Virus record (IMG/VR): IMGVR_UViG_3300042319_000316
Location: 1 to 25,758 of that record
Source: a virus
Taxonomy: Duplodnaviria > Caudoviricetes
Length of the DNA: 25,758 bases
Reading direction: 5' to 3' (one strand)
Position numbers and translations under genes: made by a program. A model generated the notes under the pieces. It was not told the DNA's origin and did no database searches. It was given only the letters and a program-made list of their open reading frames with translations. Below are positions 10,103-20,348 of the stretch, one piece after another; the first letter of the stretch is position 1, and each line of letters starts with the position of its first letter.

Positions 10103-12780
10103 TGAGTATCCTATGTTCAATGGTTGGTGCTAATTTTGCCACTGTGGCAGCAGTGGTAACAATCTTGCGTTCAAAGAAAGGCATCATTGCCGTTGGCAAT
10201 GCACAAGTATCAACCGCACAAAGTAAATTTGGTGGAGCAAGTGCTTTATTTGATGGTACTGGTGACTATTTGTTTGTAGCATCTAACAGTGATTTTGGAT
10301 TTGGCACAGGTGATTTTACTCTTGAAGGTTGGTTCCGTTTCACCAACTTTACCAACGGGCCAGCCCTGTTTGATCTGCGTGCCTCAGGTGGAACAGAAGT
10401 CAAACCTGTGGTCTATTGTGGCAGTGATGGAGTAATCTATTATTATGTAAACGGTGCAACGGCTATAACAGGAAATACTTTATCAGCCAACACTTGGTAT
10501 CACATTGCCCTAAGTCGTAGCAGTGGTGTTACCAAACTGTTTAGAGATGGAACTCAAATAGGTAGCAATTATACAGATACTAATAACTATCCTGCCACTG
10601 TGGTCAGTATTGGCATTGCCAGTTGGAATACTTCATTTAATGCATTAAATGGCTATGTTGATGAAGTTCGCATTTCAAACTCTGCCCGTTATACCGCAGC
10701 CTTTACCCCAAGCACCGTGCCATTTGTCAACGATGACAACACCCTGCTATTGATACACGCCAACGGTACCAATGCCACCACATTCTTTGAAGATGACAAC
10801 GGTGCCACAACTACGAGAACTGCCAAGACATTTACCGCAGTGGGTAATGCACAATTAAGTACCGCACAAGAAAAGTTTGGACAGAGTTCAATGTTGTTTG
10901 ATGGTACAGGAGATCATTTTATTTCTTCAGCCAGTAATGATTTTACATTCACTGGCAATTTTACTGTTGAACTTTGGGTGAGATTAGCATCAACAGGTGC
11001 AATTAGGGTTCCTATTGGTAATAGAAGCAGTGGTACAGGACTAGGAATATGGTGGGTTGAAGTAGGCACTGATCAAGCAGGTTATAGTGCTTGGCAAAAT
11101 ACTGCAGGCACCAGTTATTATCCAACATACACTGGAACAATATCTGCCAACACTTGGACTCATTTAGCAGTTGTCCGTAATGGAACTACACTAACAATGT
11201 ATAAGGACGGTGTAGGCGGAACAGCAGTCACTGGAGTTACAGGCACATTTGGTGGTAATGGTGCAATCTACATTGGTGGAATAGCCGCCAGTTATAACTG
11301 GGATGGTTACATAGATGAAGTTCGTATCTCAAAGGTAGCTCGTTATGCTGCCAACTTTACAGCACCTGCAACAACATTTGAAAATGATGCCAATACAGTA
11401 TTGTTAGTTCACGCAGATGGTGCTGATGCTTCTCTCATCGTAACAGACGATGTAAGTGGTCGCAGTCCCCACGGATTGAGCCAACAAAATACTGCGGCAA
11501 TTTCTACTACACAAAGTTATTTTGGTGGATCAAGTTTAAGTCTGAATGGTTCATCCAGTGTGAATACCCCAAGCAGTTTTGCATTTGGCACAACAGACTT
11601 CACAGTTGAATATTGGATTAGACCTACCTCACTGTCAAGTTATGATATACATTGGGATTTGAGAGGCGGAAATACCAGTCAGATCTCTCCAATAGTTTAT
11701 ACTCTTAATGGCACACTAACAATGGATGTGGGAGCAACCACTAGGATTACTGGTAGCACCTTATCTACCAATACCTGGTATCACATAGCATTGTCAAGAT
11801 CAGGTTCATCAACAAAATTGTTTGTTAACGGCACACAGACAGGCAGCACCTATACAGACACAAATAATTATTTGGCTGCTACACCTTTATACATAGGCCA
11901 AAGTAGTGGTAGTGGTGTTGATGGCTTTATGGATGAATTCCGCATTAGTAATTCTGCAAGATACACTGCCAACTTTACACCCAGCACTACGCCATTTGTC
12001 AATGATGCCAACACCTTGTTGTTATGTCACTTTGATGGCACTAACAGTAGCACAGTATTCCGTGATGACAATGGCACAAGAAGACAGCAGGGCGTTATTT
12101 CTAACGGCAGTGCCGCAGTATCAACCACTCAATCAAAGTTTGGTGGCTCCAGTTTGTATGTCAATGGAACAAATCAATTTTTAACATCACCTGATGCATC
12201 TAATACTGCATTTACCACAGAAGATTTTACAGTTGAAGCCTGGTTATATCCAATAAGTTCTACTGGTAATTTTGTTACCAATTTACAGAACGGAACAAAC
12301 AATGGATGGCAAGTTTCACATTGGAGCACAGGTAGAATATTATTCTGTAATAACACATCAGCAGGTACCCCAGGCATTGATGTAAGATTCAGCAGTGACA
12401 ATGCCTTTACTCTAAATGCCTGGAACCATATTGCCGTTTGTAGAACTGGCACTACATTGACAATGTATTCAAACGGAAATAGAGTGTATTCTGCTAGTAA
12501 TTTGCCTGCTACTCTGAAAGCAAGCAATGCAGGATTAAGAATTGGACATTCAAACGGTATTGCTGACGGTCTTTGGCAGGATGCAGGTGCATATTCTAAC
12601 AGTTATTCAAATGAAATTAGAATTAGTAATATAGTAAGATACACTGGAACAACTTACACCATTCCTACTGCACCATTCCAGAATGATGCAAATACCCTAT
12701 TGTTATTACACAACAATGGAACCAATGGTTCAACCGTGTTCTTTGATGACAACGGTATAGCACCTTACACTCCAACTTAA
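10102..12780 (+). CDS. Tail-associated protein with four tandem LamG/ConA-like domains, 892 aa
   Basis: Start re-called to ATG 10102 (TAATG coupling). Four repeats of STxQSxFGGxS...DFTxExW...WxHxA...ExRIS...RYT..NDxNTLLL. Confidence 0.85.
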   Translation: MSILCSMVGANFATVAAVVTILRSKKGIIAVGNAQVSTAQSKFGGASALFDGTGDYLFVASNSDFGFGTGDFTLEGWFRFTNFTNGPALFDLRASGGTEVKPVVYCGSDGVIYYYVNGATAITGNTLSANTWYHIALSRSSGVTKLFRDGTQIGSNYTDTNNYPATVVSIGIASWNTSFNALNGYVDEVRISNSARYTAAFTPSTVPFVNDDNTLLLIHANGTNATTFFEDDNGATTTRTAKTFTAVGNAQLSTAQEKFGQSSMLFDGTGDHFISSASNDFTFTGNFTVELWVRLASTGAIRVPIGNRSSGTGLGIWWVEVGTDQAGYSAWQNTAGTSYYPTYTGTISANTWTHLAVVRNGTTLTMYKDGVGGTAVTGVTGTFGGNGAIYIGGIAASYNWDGYIDEVRISKVARYAANFTAPATTFENDANTVLLVHADGADASLIVTDDVSGRSPHGLSQQNTAAISTTQSYFGGSSLSLNGSSSVNTPSSFAFGTTDFTVEYWIRPTSLSSYDIHWDLRGGNTSQISPIVYTLNGTLTMDVGATTRITGSTLSTNTWYHIALSRSGSSTKLFVNGTQTGSTYTDTNNYLAATPLYIGQSSGSGVDGFMDEFRISNSARYTANFTPSTTPFVNDANTLLLCHFDGTNSSTVFRDDNGTRRQQGVISNGSAAVSTTQSKFGGSSLYVNGTNQFLTSPDASNTAFTTEDFTVEAWLYPISSTGNFVTNLQNGTNNGWQVSHWSTGRILFCNNTSAGTPGIDVRFSSDNAFTLNAWNHIAVCRTGTTLTMYSNGNRVYSASNLPATLKASNAGLRIGHSNGIADGLWQDAGAYSNSYSNEIRISNIVRYTGTTYTIPTAPFQNDANTLLLLHNNGTNGSTVFFDDNGIAPYTPT

Positions 12781-12789
12781 GGATCTAAA

Positions 12790-15700
12790 GTGGATCAGTT
12801 TTACTTTGAAGAAGGTTATCTTGTAGCTGGCTATGTAACCGTAGTCAAAGAAGCCTCTGCTGGTCTTACACCTTACTTTGTTGAAGGCTATCTACCTGTT
12901 GATTATTTTGTTTTTGAAGGTAATGCGATCAATGGTGAATACAGTTTAACAGCACTACTGACCAAAGTAGGAGATGCTGTTTTTGGTGTTGGTACTTTTA
13001 CTACAATTACCACTACCAGTGTTAGTGTAAATGTTATAGCCAGTGGTCAATCCGCAATCACAGCTGCATTTACACAAACAGCAATAATCAGTCACATTGA
13101 AGGTGCTGACCTATTTGCATTCAGCAACGCACAGTTAGAGGCAGCGGTTCGTAGAATTCGTGATAATAATATAACAGCCAGTGCGGCCTTTAGTGTGGCT
13201 GTTGACTTTGTTAGAACTAGAAACACAGCCAGTGAAGAAGCGGCGGAGTTCTCTTTTACTGCTAACACAGTCAGAAGCCGCGATTATGCATCAAGTCAAT
13301 CAGCGGCTTTTTCATTGGCGGCAGCAATTGACGATAGAACAAGAGATCAATCAAGTGCTCTAACATCTCAGTTTGTGTTCACTGCCACTATCAGTCATAT
13401 TGAAGGTGCTGACCTTGTGGCATTTAGCAATGCTGAATTAACAGCCACTGCTACAAGAATCAAACAGATAGCGTCAACACAATCTGTCAGCACCACAGTT
13501 GTTGCAGATGTAAGACGCAATCCAGGTATTATACTAAATCTATCCAGTCAGTTTACACAAACAGCACTGGTTAATAGAACAGCAAGAATAACACAGACAC
13601 TAAGTGCTGTGGCCACTGTGGTGTATCGTGATAGACCTTTAGACATCAAGAGATTATCATCAGACGCAAGTAAAAGACTAATAGATACCAGCATCAAGAA
13701 GTTTGGTACTGGTAGTTTGTCAATTACATCAGGCACTGGCACAACATTTACTGGAGCCAATCTAGGCTATGTTGATTATCACGCTACTCCTTCAATGGCC
13801 ACTAGTTTTGGTGGTGCTTACAATGATAGAGTAGTTGAGTTTTGGTTCTATTCTGGTGGTATAACACAAAATTTTGTACCTATTGTAGGTTTATATAGTT
13901 CTACTAGCTTCTCCTACCCAAATTATGTTTGGTATGTTACAGTAAAAACTGGAGCCACTGGCGGAATAGCAATGCTTGGAGGAGTTACTTTTCAAGTATT
14001 TGATATTAACATTACCGTGAACACTTGGCATCATATTGCCATTGCTACACAGGGCTACGCCAATGGAGATAATCCTGGCAACGCTATTTGGCTGGACGGT
14101 AATAGAGTAGCTTTTAACACTGCCCACATTAATGGTCAAGCAGGTTTTAGCAATTATTTCTTAAGAGTTGGCCCAGATGGTCAATACAATACTAGTTTTA
14201 AAATTGATGAATTAAGAATTATCACTGGCCCACAAGGTACAAATAACGCCAGTGGTTTTGCTCCTACACAAACATCAATCACAGTACCAACTAATCGTCG
14301 TTGGAACGCTGACAGCGAGTATACCAGAGCCTTATTCCATTATGACATTGACTATCGCGATGACATAGGCATTCAACAGGTTGCTGAAGCCGCCATATCT
14401 ACTGCGGCCACTATTACAGCCACAGTTGATAAAATAAGATTTATTGAGGCATCTGCTGTCATATCTAGTGCGGCGTCAACTTCTGCAACCATATTAAGAA
14501 TACAATCAAGTAGTGCCGCTTTAGACAGTGCGTTTACACAGTCAGCAGATGTTGCAAGAACAAGAGGTCTTATAAGTAATCAAGACGCAGTATTCACACA
14601 ATCCACAGAGGCTGTTAAGACAGCAAACATAGTTTCTGCTCTTGACTCTCAGGCTACTTTTACAGGCACAATTAGTCACATTGAAGGTGCTGACCTTGTG
14701 GCCTTTAGCAATAGCACACTATCTGCTGATGGCGTAGTAACAAGAAGTGCAGTATCAACCCAATCAAGTGCATTTACATCCACTGCTAATATTCTAAGAG
14801 TTAGATTTGCTGCCAGTGATATTAATTCTGCATTTACACAATCAGTAGATGCAGTAAAAACTGCTGTTGGTTCTAGCACAATATCATCAGAAACCGCTAC
14901 ATCAACACAAGGTCAAAGAGTTAGATTTGCTGATAGCACCTTAACTTTAGTTTCTAGTTTATCAGCGACAGCAGAAAAAATTAAAGTAGCCAGTGCCCAA
15001 TTAGTCAGTGAATTTTCTACTTCTAGACCATATATTTTAGCAGACTATTTAGAAACTGGCTACTACGAAGTTCTTGAAATATCAGCCATTAAGACTGCTA
15101 GGGCAGTAATAAACACTGAAGCCCTTGCCAGTCAGCTAACGGCAGTGGTCAAGGTTGCTAAATTCTTTGTAAATGCTAATATTGTTTCAACACTAACTGC
15201 TGAAATAACCGTTGACAAAGAACTTTCTGCGGATCTAAGTAGTGAAATTGTTTTAGGTGTGGAAAACGGTAGAGTACGCGGCTTTGGCGTTATTCTACAG
15301 GTCAATACAACACAATCAGCCAGCATTGGCAGAATAAAACAGGCTAGTTCAACGCAAGCCAGTCAATTTACAGTTGCAGCCGCAGCCATCAAGACTGGCA
15401 ATAACGCTGTTATTGTTTCTAGTGAATTTGCATTAACTAGTATCGCTATAAAGATAAACGGCTTTGATTCTGCAGTATCAAGCGAATCTGCAATAGCGGT
15501 TAGTGCTAATATAATTCGTAGAGCAATCTCAAATCAATCAAGTGCATTTGCACAGTCTGCCACAATAGACAATCGCGTCAGAAGTATTAATGTTGAGATC
15601 AATAGTGTTGCAACACTAACTGCTGATGCTCTTGCTGGTAAGTTTGCTGAAAGCGATCAAAGTGCAGTATTCACACAAACTGCATCTGCATTGAGATTGA

Positions 15701-16903: not shown

Positions 16904-17380
16904 ATGGACGACAAAGAATTTAAAAAAATCCTCAGTGAAGTGGCAGAATGGCGATTTGAAAAGGTCAGCGACACTCAAATTAAACAAAGCCGTAAAATGG
17001 CCAAGGGTAAATTCAAACCCATTGTGGAAGGTGAAGAGCCAGAAATGGCAGTGCAGCTTGTTGATGGTGTCAATCCCACAGTGGTACCCATATTGGTCAA
17101 ACTTAAACCCTGTGCCACTAACTGCGAAGACTGCGGTAAACACTGCCCCAATGGCAGACAAGTCACTGCCAAAATATATCCATCAAGAGCACTAGGCCTG
17201 CATTGGCGTAAACGATGTGTGACCTGTCAACGATATCTTAACAAAGACACTGGCAAATATACCGTACCAGACAACAATGCTTCAAATCATTACAGCACAC
17301 TTAAGACTGGACATCAAGTGTCATTTGAAAGTGATAAAGAAATAATCACAATTCATTGTGAAAACACACAGGCGGAATAA
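16904..17380 (+). CDS. Hypothetical Cys-rich (putative Zn-binding) protein, 158 aa
   Basis: CxxxCEDCGKHC and RCVTC motifs; basic N-terminus. Confidence 0.65.
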   Translation: MDDKEFKKILSEVAEWRFEKVSDTQIKQSRKMAKGKFKPIVEGEEPEMAVQLVDGVNPTVVPILVKLKPCATNCEDCGKHCPNGRQVTAKIYPSRALGLHWRKRCVTCQRYLNKDTGKYTVPDNNASNHYSTLKTGHQVSFESDKEIITIHCENTQAE

Positions 17381-17383: not shown

Positions 17384-17387
17384 TTAT

Positions 17388-17482
17388 TAGCAGGGACAAA
17401 TATCCGTTAATCCTAAGGGATGGTTTGGCTGTCACTAAATCAAAAAGTAGTTTCTTATTGCCATTAGAAACGAGCCCTGTTA
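17388..17482 (+). ncRNA. Cloverleaf small RNA (~95 nt), candidate C4/CI-like trans-acting antisense RNA
   Basis: Closing stem TAGCAGGG/CCCTGTTA. Arms: TATCC..GGATG; GGTTTGG-ctgtca-CTAAATC; GTTTCT-tattgccatt-AGAAAC. Several G-U pairs; flanked by a promoter-like box and a terminator. Confidence 0.65.
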
Positions 17483-17516
17483 GAAACCCAGTCGCAATGA
17501 TTGGGTTTCGTCTTTT
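17483..17516 (+). terminator. Rho-independent terminator
   Basis: 12-bp stem GAAACCCAGTCG-caa-TGATTGGGTTTC followed by GTCTTTT. Confidence 0.8.
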
Positions 17517-17547: not shown

Positions 17548-17555
17548 TATAAATA
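17548..17555 (+). promoter_or_regulatory. Perfect T4 late promoter consensus TATAAATA
   Basis: Exact TATAAATA just after the terminator, with GATATTTT upstream; predicted +1 near G17561. Confidence 0.6.
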
Positions 17556-17560
17556 CTTGT

Positions 17561-18005
17561 GACAGGCAAAACACTTAGGCATCATTGGCAATCCAAATCA
17601 TTTTAGGCACTATCATCTAACACACAAGGTTGGCCCGCCAGATTGTAATAGGGCTGTGGAAAAACCAGGGAATAACTGGGCACGAGACATATTGAGGCAC
17701 CCCCGTTGCTACGGCAACTATCCTGAAAAATTGGAAGTGGGTTTGAGGTTGAAAGCAAAGATAACCAACGCATTGATATAGTATGAATGTTAGCATACGA
17801 ACACACTGGCTATAAACATCTAGACACTAGGAACGAGGTCTAGAGTGCGGTAACGCATATCGTGGCAGGTAAGGAAAAGCACAGAGTCCTTTAGCATACA
17901 GTGATGAAAACACCTGCTTCCATAAGTCTTGGCTGGGGCAACTCACATAAAGATAGACGGTGCCGCTGAAAACGGTTCCGTCTGACTGAAACAATCTACA
18001 TAAAG
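17561..18005 (+). ncRNA. Large (~440 nt) structured, pseudoknotted ncRNA candidate, family not recognised
   Basis: No + strand ORF. Tetraloop hairpins: cUACGg (17705-17718) and GUAA (17846-17857). Helices: TCTAGAC/GTCTAGA, GCAGGT/ACCTGC, AAGGA/TCCTT, TGGAAG/CTTCCA, CACTG/CAGTG, AGACGG/CCGTCT, and long-range AGATTGT(17640)/ACAATCT(17991). Confidence 0.65.
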
Positions 18006-18032
18006 TATCTCAATAGATCATTATGTGTTTCT

Positions 18033-18094
18033 GAACGAAGCGAAGCGACATACGAGTGAGCGGAAGCGAAATGAGTTGATGTCTGTAAGACATC
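18033..18094 (+). other. Primosome-assembly-site-like / ssDNA-origin-like element
   Basis: GAACGAAGCGAAGCGA..GAGTGAGCGGAAGCGAA resembles the ColE1/pBR322 n'-pas region as I recall it. Contains the GCGAAGC mini-hairpin and a GATGTCT-GTA-AGACATC hairpin. Confidence 0.4.
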
Positions 18095-18117
18095 TTTAAT
18101 AGTAAGGAATAAGTGAT

Positions 18118-18543
18118 ATGTGGATTTACAATAATAAAGAGATTACTGAACTTCCTGATGATGTAGTTGGCTTTGTGTATCTGATTACGAACTTGATAAA
18201 TGACAAAAAGTATATTGGTAAGAAGTTAGCCAAGTTTGCCAAAACACGATATAAGATGCACACACAGAAAAATGGTAAACGAGTAAAGAAAAAGATTCGT
18301 TCATATGTGGATAGTGATTGGTTGACATATTACGGATCAAGTGATGCTCTTGCCAAAGACATTGAGCTACAGGGCAAAGATCAGTTCTCACGAGAGATCA
18401 TTCGCTTGTGTTACTCCAAAGCAGAGTGTTCATATTGGGAAGCCAAAGAGCAGTTCTACAATGGCGTTTTGGAATCTGCAGATTGGTATAATGCCCAAAT
18501 ATCAGTGCGCTGTCACAAGAACAACATATTGGGCAAACGCTAA
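18118..18543 (+). CDS. Stand-alone GIY-YIG nuclease (Seg-like), 141 aa
   Basis: GFVYLITN..NDKKYIGKK (GIY-YIG signature), YYGSS, FSREI, a conserved Glu (SYWEAKEQF) and WYN. AAGGA RBS. Confidence 0.85.
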   Translation: MWIYNNKEITELPDDVVGFVYLITNLINDKKYIGKKLAKFAKTRYKMHTQKNGKRVKKKIRSYVDSDWLTYYGSSDALAKDIELQGKDQFSREIIRLCYSKAECSYWEAKEQFYNGVLESADWYNAQISVRCHKNNILGKR

Positions 18544-19765: not shown

Positions 19766-20023
19766 ATGGGTTGGTATGAACACAGCGAACTAAAGCCCTA
19801 TGATTACATCACTGAGTGGCAGGCAGCAGATTCTCGCCACGAAATGTTTACCAAAATACGGCACAGCGATGAAATACTGTACGATGGTGGTTGGGGACCA
19901 GAACGATTGCATTGGAATCCTAAACAAGAACAGGGTTGGATTCATTGCACAGAAGCACGGCACAAAGAAATAATGCAATGGATCACTGATACCGTGAATG
20001 AATGTGCTCCAGGAAATGAATGA
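19766..20023 (+). CDS. Hypothetical Trp-rich protein (start uncertain)
   Basis: Fills the gap between neighbouring genes. The track's start at 19652 overlaps the lipoprotein, so ATG 19766 (or a start near 19742) is more plausible. Confidence 0.55.
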   Translation: MGWYEHSELKPYDYITEWQAADSRHEMFTKIRHSDEILYDGGWGPERLHWNPKQEQGWIHCTEARHKEIMQWITDTVNECAPGNE

Positions 20024-20038
20024 TTATTTAGGCACCAG

Positions 20039-20046
20039 AATAAATA
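20039..20046 (+). promoter_or_regulatory. T4-late-like promoter, leaderless gene
   Basis: AATAAATA-acact-ATG(20052), with no RBS. Confidence 0.6.
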
Positions 20047-20051
20047 ACACT

Positions 20052-20348
20052 ATGCCAAGAACAGGAATTAGACCACACACCTGGAAAGTACAGGGAGAAA
20101 TACCGCATCAACAGAACATAGCCTGGTTGAGGGCACAAGCGCAGGCACGATTTCGTAATGAAGTTTGGCTGCTAGACTTTGATGACTTTCAAAGACTTTG
20201 GGCAGGATTATGGCAGTTTCGTGGTCGTGGTAGTGAAGACTATGTAATGACTCGTGATGATCACCAAGGAGCCTGGGTGTTAGGCAATGTATCTGTGACC
20301 CGCAGATATGAATATTTAAAAAGACAAAGAGAGTATAGAGGATATTGA
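20052..20348 (+). CDS. Putative HNH-like/DNA-binding phage protein, 98 aa
   Basis: AQARFR...W.L.F..F..LW...RGR....YVMTR.D..GAW..GNV pattern, recalled from degenerate beta-beta-alpha-Me phage proteins. Start re-called to 20052. Confidence 0.5.
   Translation: MPRTGIRPHTWKVQGEIPHQQNIAWLRAQAQARFRNEVWLLDFDDFQRLWAGLWQFRGRGSEDYVMTRDDHQGAWVLGNVSVTRRYEYLKRQREYRGY

What the first reader, a model, noticed from the sequence alone, without database searches (positions are those of the whole stretch)
17548..18543. Large pseudoknotted ncRNA next to a minimal GIY-YIG nuclease: candidate new RNA-protein system
Seen: ~440 nt without a + strand ORF, after a perfect TATAAATA. It has RNA-type tetraloops (cUACGg 17709-14, GUAA 17850-53) and at least ten helices. 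Some helices cross: CACTG/GCTA (17804-12) pair into the region enclosed by GCAGGT/ACCTGC, and AGATTGT in the loop of the first hairpin pairs with ACAATCT near the 3' end. The adjacent GIY-YIG protein is only 141 aa and carries a very basic insertion (KKLAKFAKTRYKMHTQKNGKRVKKKIR). Established: GIY-YIG homing enzymes such as I-TevI get specificity from an appended DNA-binding domain, which is absent here; IscB and TnpB get specificity from an adjacent ncRNA. Inference: the RNA may bind or guide the nuclease, be processed by it, or act with it in replication initiation. I do not recognise the RNA family.
Basis: partly seen in the sequence, partly recalled or inferred. Interest (0 to 1): 0.9.

Follow-up and report, generated by a model that had tools for sequence, protein, structure and literature searches.

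The report
Knotted phage RNA, likely replication origin
A small lake-type phage with no recognisable DNA-copying genes carries a real, multiply knotted RNA of about 400 bases followed by a DNA-hairpin tail, shared with giant phages, which likely starts DNA replication, while the neighbouring nuclease is a replaceable partner and probably not an RNA-guided enzyme.

Summary
The RNA is real. In 47 homologues, 94% of cells pair and 35 of 74 pairs show compensatory change, including crossing helices. It has no Rfam match; a cousin class carries Rfam Polynucleobacter-1 as its 5' third.

Linkage to the SegE-type GIY-YIG gene is strong both ways: 43 of 51 RNA-found loci and 75 of 80 protein-found loci. 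It is not exclusive. Other phages put a PD-(D/E)xK resolvase or Endo VII in the same slot, RNA class switches repeatedly on the protein tree, and one complete 30-kb phage lacks the gene. An RNA-guided nuclease is therefore unlikely.

New anatomy: the RNA ends in a 7-nt direct repeat that varies between phages, is identical within one (122 of 124), and has no pairing partner inside the RNA. An AT-rich spacer and DNA-type mini-hairpins follow. There is one copy per genome.

Best reading (about 50%): a ColE1-like RNA-primed origin shared by about 345-kb jumbo phages and 31-kb phages that lack polymerase, helicase and late sigma, possibly satellites. Untested. The scan reached this reading before for the cousin class on other DNA (e1-5684341).

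The parts
17483..17516 (+). Intrinsic-terminator-like hairpin plus U-run that insulates the element from upstream genes; end of a second small folded element (17385-17516)
   Evidence: sequence; conserved in kin; fold
17548..17555 (+). TATAAATA, T4-type late-promoter-like motif (core TAAATA conserved); likely promoter of the RNA
   Evidence: alignment; TAAATA is intergenic-enriched in a sister phage (11 of 21 in 11% of sequence) and in jumbos (84 of 204 in 9%); T4 label recalled
17560..18004 (+). Class A ornate ncRNA; conserved covarying body 17612-18004; ends not mapped
17617..17793 (+). Pseudoknot 1: 17617-22 pairs with 17788-93 in the loop of hairpin 17781-98
   Evidence: helices 1 and 7 (100%, 99% paired)
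17809..17921 (+). Knotted core: 17809-12/17892-95, 17830-33/17918-21 (invariant), 17862-64/17880-82, 17865-70/17912-17, 17872-75/17887-90
   Evidence: helices 8, 10-13
17945..17951 (+). 7-nt repeat, copy 1 (ACATAAA after ACTC); inferred internal guide
17955..17983 (+). Terminal hairpin between the two repeat copies
   Evidence: helix 15 (92% paired)
17998..18004 (+). 7-nt repeat, copy 2 (ACATAAA after ATCT); inferred DNA landing site
18006..18094 (+). DNA-type tail: AT-rich spacer, mini-hairpins GCGAAGC (18040-46) and GCGGAAGC (18060-67), and a 7-bp hairpin with GTA triloop (18078-94); inferred single-strand initiation signal
   Evidence: PMC13037366 passages
18118..18543 (+). SegE-type GIY-YIG nuclease (PF19835, phrog_447 labelled 'NAD synthetase'); basic residues 39-65 predicted as a long beta-hairpin; likely a branch/junction-resolving nuclease
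   Evidence: syntenic replacement by resolvases

Best explanation
The element is likely an RNA-primed replication origin: a conserved, multiply knotted RNA followed on the same strand by an AT-rich spacer and DNA-type mini-hairpins, present once in each genome examined. Predicted steps: (1) transcription from the TAAATA promoter; (2) the folded RNA presents repeat copy 1, which would pair with the template DNA strand at the identical copy 2 and seed a persistent RNA-DNA hybrid; (3) the displaced strand would fold the mini-hairpins that load primase/helicase; (4) the RNA is trimmed and extended as the leading-strand primer. The GIY-YIG protein is likely the branch or Holliday-junction nuclease of this module and is interchangeable with other resolvases. 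The 31-kb phage likely borrows polymerase, helicase and late sigma from a jumbo helper or its host. Shown: structure, repeat identity, tail anatomy, copy number, linkage, nuclease replacement, gene absence. Inferred: all four steps and the enzyme's substrate.
For: (a) Repeat: with fixed anchors the two 7-mers are identical in 88 of 89 class A and 34 of 35 class B distinct loci; 0.17 would be expected for class B if independent. There are 10 and 18 variants and spacing of 48-67 nt without helical phasing. The best covarying partner of each variable position is the other copy, never a Watson-Crick partner, so the shared complement is most simply the template strand. (b) Tail: motif RAGYG-N1-4-ARCGW in 133 of 182 tails, against 2.4 in shuffles, 19 on the other strand and 2 in the RNA body. 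It is followed by hairpins with GNA triloops in 88 of 133 and only 19 G-T in 1073 pairs. The spacer is 74% AT against 55% in the body. GCGN(N)AGC occurs in 70 of 95 and 56 of 87 tails against about 3 by chance, including the GCGTTAGC and GCGAAAGC forms reported at St-1/alpha3 and G4 primase origins and more stable as DNA than RNA (PMC13037366 passages). (c) ColE1 precedent: a 550-nt RNA, persistent hybrid, and displaced strand used for helicase loading with a downstream ssi (PMC5043065, PMC3167613 passages). (d) One class motif per genome in 5 of 5 genomes read whole or nearly whole. (e) 3 of 3 complete 30-31-kb phages lack PF03796, PF00136 and phrog_12791, which 2 of 2 jumbos have. The GIY-YIG is the only strong protein match between them (56-61%). 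(f) Jumbo slot: late sigma, SbcD, SbcC, nuclease, RNA, 5-9 kb from a divergent strand switch. Cultured 121Q, Phosso and PA5oct keep a resolvase plus a 0.66-1.0-kb gap there, with RNase HI beside it in Phosso. (g) RNA modules are swapped between near-identical phages while the tail stays (L010/L013, L009/L005), like plasmid incompatibility types.
Against: No experiment. Third-position GC skew gave no origin signal. A 7-bp hybrid is weak alone. Jumbo phages have their own primase/helicase and could use recombination-dependent replication. The mini-hairpin motif also occurs 11-28 times per jumbo genome and is absent right behind the element in G027 and G020. Atu_ph07 has no long gap in the slot and SCTP-2 none beside its resolvase. 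PA5oct's four reported ncRNAs lie elsewhere (PMC7318152 Table 1), and its gap matches the class B model only weakly (14.8 bits, rough E 0.005). Transcription is not shown: metatranscriptome data are contigs of relatives only. Only three replication families were tested in the small phages; unannotated small ORFs could include an initiator.
Confidence: 0.5

Rival explanations
1. A trans-acting structural RNA or scaffold with two identical protein-binding sites (the repeats), acting in late infection, for example in debranching or packaging with whichever resolvase is present.
For: Late-type promoter. Position among recombination and virion genes. Pieces in RNA libraries fall mostly on the RNA body (weak). 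Two identical motifs could bind a dimer.
Against: The 7-mer changes among relatives without matching the protein tree. It does not explain the strand-specific DNA-type tail.
Confidence: 0.2
2. An RNA-guided GIY-YIG nuclease: the RNA binds the basic beta-hairpin and directs a nick, at most to the element's own copy 2.
For: Linkage in 43 of 51 and 44 of 56 RNA-found loci and 75 of 80 protein-found loci, kept through inversion and reordering. The RNA was seen only with homologues at least 46% identical. No appended DNA-binding domain; long basic hairpin.
Against: PF24608 replaces it beside the RNA: present in 2 of 4 GIY-less large records and 0 of 16 GIY-bearing ones. Complete phage G006 has the RNA and no GIY match. 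L385 (66% identical) has coding DNA on both sides. There are 14 class changes on the tree. No long variable guide.
Confidence: 0.12
3. A selfish homing cassette: a free-standing Seg-like endonuclease that spreads itself and the neighbouring RNA module between co-infecting phages.
For: Seg-family homology; allele swapping of the RNA; shared by unrelated small and jumbo phages.
Against: Fixed single locus with deep synteny. The gene is intact in all 32 aligned members and is replaced by housekeeping-type resolvases. It does not explain the RNA's conservation.
Confidence: 0.1
4. The repeats are processing, circularisation or template-jumping sites: a ribozyme or RT template that yields a roughly 55-nt circle or a concatemer.
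For: Exact 7-nt terminal repeats resemble alignment regions of templating RNAs (recalled: telomerase, DRT2); ribozyme-like knotted core.
Against: No RVT_1 match in 0 of 5 genomes. The junction pattern gave 75 metagenome hits, none element-like on inspection. No go-back joints in 8 runs with thin cover. No internal pairing partner for the repeats.
Confidence: 0.08

Closest known systems
Polynucleobacter-1 RNA motif (Rfam RF01718; Weinberg et al. 2010, PMC2864571)
   Same: Matches the 5' 140 nt of some class B cousins (L223, L237, L235, L254, L217; 69-109 bits), which share the terminal repeat domain, tail and GIY-YIG neighbour. The window shares a short ACUAUCC..GGA submotif (by eye).
   Different: The window has no match even at E 10. 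The Rfam model lacks the core, repeats and tail. The paper's table lists it as probably cis-regulatory; the descriptive supplement text was not seen.
ColE1 RNA II origin with downstream ssiA/n'-pas
   Same: Large folded RNA upstream of a single-strand initiation-like element on the displaced strand; no encoded initiator (passages of PMC5043065, PMC3167613).
   Different: No sequence likeness. Phage-borne, several pseudoknots, a variable 7-nt direct repeat, an adjacent resolvase. No antisense RNA I was looked for.
Mini-hairpin primase origins of G4, St-1, alpha3 and RSF1010 ssiA
   Same: Same GCGN(N)AGC and C(GNA)G hairpins (PMC13037366 passages).
   Different: Those are stand-alone ssDNA signals; here they trail a 400-nt RNA in dsDNA phages.
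OMEGA systems (IscB-omegaRNA/HEARO, TnpB-reRNA)
   Same: Small nuclease gene abutting a large pseudoknotted RNA.
   Different: No RuvC/HNH, no transposon context seen, no long variable guide, replaceable nuclease, no Rfam HEARO match.
T4 Seg / I-TevI GIY-YIG endonucleases and Slx1-type GIY-YIG resolvases
   Same: Catalytic-domain fold (best Foldseek match I-TevI 1mk0, E 0.014); invariant Tyr, Glu and Asn. Slx1 as a junction resolvase is from search-listing abstracts.
   Different: No C-terminal DNA-binding domain; long basic beta-hairpin; no conserved Arg at the position recalled for I-TevI R27.

Membership tests
Any Rfam 15 family (GOLLD, ROOL, OLE, HEARO, group I/II, RNase P, tmRNA) | Match to a covariance model at gathering score | tested here: not met
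   0 hits in window; best E 0.79 far below cut-off; no tRNA/tmRNA
Polynucleobacter-1 (RF01718) | Model match of at least 37 bits | tested here: not met
   window 0 matches at E 10; class B cousins do match
ColE1-type RNA-primed origin | Large structured RNA upstream of the start site | tested here: met
   (structure); transcription itself not shown
ColE1-type RNA-primed origin | Single-strand initiation-like element downstream on the displaced strand | tested here: inconclusive
   strand-biased DNA-type mini-hairpins; function unproven; no plasmid sequence match
ColE1-type RNA-primed origin | Persistent R-loop, RNase H trimming, primer extension | not testable with these tools
   RNase HI beside the syntenic gap in Phosso is only a hint
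ColE1-type RNA-primed origin | Antisense copy-control RNA | not tested
   no strand-resolved reads available
OMEGA-like RNA-guided nuclease | Obligate, class-matched nuclease-RNA pair | tested here: not met
OMEGA-like RNA-guided nuclease | Variable guide of about 15-20 nt at an RNA end | tested here: not met
   only a 7-nt self-matching repeat
OMEGA-like RNA-guided nuclease | RNA binding and programmable cleavage | not testable with these tools
   needs biochemistry
SegE-type GIY-YIG (PF19835) | Profile match over the curated cut-off and GIY-YIG fold | tested here: met
   113 bits against 25; model pLDDT 91.9, I-TevI best match
Holliday-junction resolvase | Cleaves four-way junctions | not testable with these tools
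   inferred only from slot sharing with PF24608 and Endo VII
RT-template RNAs (retron, DRT, telomerase-like) | Reverse transcriptase in the genome; repeat products | tested here: not met
Phage satellite | Lacks functions supplied by a helper phage | tested here: inconclusive
   3 of 3 small genomes lack PolB, DnaB and late sigma but use TAAATA; no helper or host identified

The most novel reading that the evidence does not exclude
A widespread family of ornate phage RNAs that start replication by using an internal 7-nt guide to capture their own template DNA, with an exchangeable junction nuclease to process the joint; 31-kb virion-only phages have captured the jumbo phage's RNA origin and late promoter and replicate as its satellites.
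Probability: 0.3. Interest if true: 0.9.

Novelty: new variant of a known kind. Interest (0 to 1): 0.72.

Why it matters
To my knowledge (recalled; searches and passages of PMC13282480 gave nothing) no replication origin is mapped for T4-like jumbo phages of the 121Q/PA5oct kind. This gives a precise candidate with a clean genetic test: mutate one repeat copy, then rescue it with the other. The RNA family is large (about 1,100 class A and 1,200 class B stretches estimated in IMG/VR), has several pseudoknots, and is a ready structural target. It would give the orphan Rfam motif Polynucleobacter-1 a full-length context. It also suggests that the common phage protein phrog_447, labelled 'NAD synthetase', is a junction-processing nuclease, and it points to a possible new satellite-jumbo pairing.

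Tried and rejected
- MFE z-score: not informative.
- Rfam weak hits such as skipping-rope: chance.
- blastn of class A and B RNAs against cultured phages: no real match. Tail against plasmids: 6 chance hits.
- First iterative nhmmer run drifted into the coding sequence and was discarded beyond iteration 0.
- K-turn/box C-D reading of the repeats: rejected, because variation hits the would-be G-A pairs. Palindromic kissing: rejected, as the window's repeat is not palindromic. DNA iterons: spacing is not helically phased.
- Dual-strand bridge-RNA-like pairing upstream of copy 2: no complementary covariation found; the ATCT is invariant, so this is untestable there.
- Circle or concatemer junction: 75 hits, 4 flagged by a loose filter and all judged coding by eye.
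- GC and GC3 skew: no origin signal.
- nhmmer of class A/B profiles on 5 cultured jumbo regions: no hit.
- Metatranscriptomes: 8 runs, contigs only, share of words 0.06-0.11; pieces of relatives lie mostly at 17585-17975 but also on the upstream element, the tail and the GIY-YIG gene. They show presence in RNA libraries, not strand, ends or level; two runs are probably DNA.
- (0 of 20 records with GIY-YIG) had no positive control in the same call, and 19 of the 20 records are incomplete.
- PDB sequence search: nothing significant.
- Rows dropped: L087 and L136 (chance class A matches) stay in the 51-locus count but were left out of alignments; L230 and L284 were left out of tail counts; 40 loci per scan had only 300-nt flanks and were not used for linkage.
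- The tree is the quick IQ-TREE result; the careful search did not finish.
- The descriptive text on Polynucleobacter-1 in the 2010 supplements was not found and may already mention the neighbouring gene.

Full report
Setting. The window is most of a tailed-phage genome: tail, terminase, portal, methyltransferase and small ORFs. A record with an identical GIY-YIG locus, G001, is a complete 31,125-bp genome with direct terminal repeats. Its remaining 5.4 kb holds scaffold-, capsid- and tail-like genes. G001 and two other complete 30-31-kb phages with the element (G004, G006) have no match to DnaB_C, DNA_pol_B or the jumbo late sigma factor, whereas two about 345-kb genomes with the element have all three. 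No RVT_1 match was found in the five.

The observation. The non-coding stretch and the listed loops are there. Folding energy alone is not unusual, and Rfam gives nothing. A DNA pattern taken from the RNA alone retrieved 120 loci from IMG/VR, about 1,100 estimated. Mutual information on 104 distinct cores and 53 full-length copies gave many Watson-Crick covarying pairs, z up to 22. A 74-pair structure written on the window was counted on 47 sequences under 95% identity: 94.3% paired, 35 pairs with changes on both sides, 0 of 500 shuffles as high, slid controls 32-42%. G-U pairs are frequent, as expected of RNA. Five crossing helices are in the model: three show compensatory change at 87-100% pairing, one is invariant, and one (17637-40/17930-33) is mostly invariant at 85%. 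The structure was derived from these sequences, so the slid control favours it; the compensatory counts are the stronger evidence.

The family. Distant GIY-YIG loci carry other RNA classes. Class B (120 loci retrieved, about 1,200 estimated) has a different core. Near-identical small phages L010/L013 and L009/L005 carry classes C and D between the same flanks. Classes A and B share a terminal domain, ACTC-N7, hairpin, TGAC, ATCT-N7; a back-reference pattern for it gave 0 hits in 2.1 Mb of shuffled DNA. Class C has a looser duplicated motif. Some class B members match Rfam Polynucleobacter-1 over their first 140 nt. Of the 2010 paper (PMC2864571) I saw main-text passages and supplement rows, not the descriptive text. 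The searches found no paper on the full-length RNA or its nuclease link; the library lacks most subscription journals.

Linkage. From the RNA side, 43 of 51 class A loci with long flanks have the GIY-YIG within 2 kb on the same strand (40 gene-first, 3 RNA-first; 2 of the 8 misses are chance pattern matches); for class B it is 44 of 56. From the protein side, 75 of 80 loci (redundant, 53-100% identical) carry an element: 47 by the class B model, 20 more of class A by nhmmer or inspection, and 8 by inspection (L050-52, classes C and D). The other five are cut within 200 nt on one side. Many have the RNA upstream on the opposite strand. Among 48 genome-collection loci, elements were seen only with homologues at least 46% identical, and four cultured T4-like homologues have no room for one.

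The nuclease is replaceable. In GIY-less large phages the adjacent gene resembles a PD-(D/E)xK resolvase in 9 of 17 loci inspected (PF24608 confirmed for three). PF24608 was found in 0 of 16 GIY-bearing large records, two of them complete. The jumbo gene order is late sigma, SbcD, SbcC, nuclease, RNA, then baseplate hub genes on the other strand. Cultured relatives keep the slot: 121Q has Endo VII and an 836-bp gap, Phosso a resolvase, a 1,014-bp gap and RNase HI, PA5oct a resolvase and gaps; Atu_ph07 and SCTP-2 show no such gap in the stretches read. The PA5oct gap gives a weak class B hit (14.8 bits); the 121Q and Phosso gaps contain C(GNA)G hairpins but no profile match. Complete phage G006 has class A RNA without a GIY-YIG match, and L385 has the protein without an adjacent RNA. 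On a quick tree of 121 proteins, classes A and B each need 14 changes, 4-5 forced by strong branches, and the small-phage clade holds A, C and D. The AlphaFold model (pLDDT 91.9) is an I-TevI-like domain with a long basic beta-hairpin, a family trait. I infer a structure-selective nuclease, as Slx1 is in this fold (abstracts only), not an RNA-programmed one.

The repeat. The two 7-mers are identical in 88 of 89 class A and 34 of 35 class B loci when located by their anchors alone. They vary between phages, match for exactly 7 nt in most, and lie 48-67 nt apart in all but two. Their covariation is identity with each other, with no complementary partner in the RNA, and the complement of the window's repeat is absent from the window. 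Identity is most simply enforced by both copies pairing with the same strand, the DNA template. A comparable RNA II-template contact in ColE1 is recalled (Masukata and Tomizawa 1990), not read here. Circle or concatemer products were looked for and not found.

The tail. Behind copy 2 come an AT-rich spacer, a strand-biased mini-hairpin motif (133 of 182 tails) and a hairpin with GNA triloop and almost no G-T pairs. The commonest forms include those reported at St-1/alpha3 and G4 primase origins, which are far more stable as DNA than RNA (PMC13037366 sections 2.3, 4.1 and 4.2 as passages). They lie on the strand that an R-loop would displace, as in ColE1 (passages of PMC5043065 and PMC3167613). 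The motif is not unique in jumbo genomes and is missing behind the element in two of three.

Mechanism and odds. One class motif per genome in 5 of 5 (a second generic-pattern hit in G020 was not followed up), a position near a divergent strand switch, presence in phages without recognisable replication genes, module swapping with a constant tail, the self-matching repeat and the DNA-type tail together favour an RNA-primed origin (0.5). Against: no skew signal, no transcript mapping, and PA5oct's reported ncRNAs lie elsewhere (PMC7318152 passages and Table 1). Rivals: trans-acting scaffold 0.2, guided nuclease 0.12, homing cassette 0.1, processing or templating RNA 0.08. The small phage's TAAATA motifs without a late sigma, and the cassette being its only strong link to jumbos, suggest a satellite; this is untested.

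Earlier scan notes. e1-5684341 reached the same origin reading for a class B jumbo element. I saw it, after recording the idea; it is agreement, not evidence. e1-5363936 judged a class A relative independent of its nuclease. I agree that it is not a guided nuclease but find the linkage much tighter than 'independent'.

Verdict. A real, widespread, uncatalogued RNA class with a testable mechanism: new variant of a known kind, interest 0.72.

Noticed in passing
window 17385-17516: A second small folded element after TAAATA at 17378, conserved in close kin and ending in the terminator; a piece of it appears in one RNA library.
   Followed up: partly
window-wide; G004, G006: TAAATA precedes structural operons of 30-31-kb phages that encode no match to the jumbo late sigma factor; possible satellites of T4-like jumbo phages.
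   Followed up: partly
window 18118-18543: phrog_447 is labelled 'NAD synthetase' but is a SegE-type GIY-YIG; 692 cultured phage records hold a relative.
   Followed up: yes
window 16904-17380: 158-aa Cys-rich, probably zinc-binding ORF of no family, kept upstream of the element in small phages; a shorter Cys-motif ORF sits between nuclease and RNA in L017, L084 and L114.
   Followed up: no
window 19998-20348: 116-aa ORF that looks by eye like an HNH/His-Cys-type nuclease (recalled likeness; only phrog_16521 at E 0.001).
   Followed up: no
L011 about 1980-2150; L009 574-1002: Small extra ORFs inserted between RNA and nuclease (L011) or between terminator and RNA (L009).
   Followed up: no
L508 (PA5oct) 11700-13180: Four tiny annotated ORFs overlap a gap that weakly matches the class B RNA model; they may be misannotations.
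   Followed up: partly
L509 (Phosso) 13760-14773; L511 (121Q) 12510-13345: Long hairpin-rich gaps beside a resolvase, with no Rfam match; Phosso's mini-hairpins lie on the minus strand, next to RNase HI.
   Followed up: partly
window 17765: Contigs from two RNA runs end in adapter sequence at the same place; may be a processing site or chance.
   Followed up: no
G020 C1 166007: A second match to the generic repeat pattern far from the class B element, near several mini-hairpin motifs.
   Followed up: no
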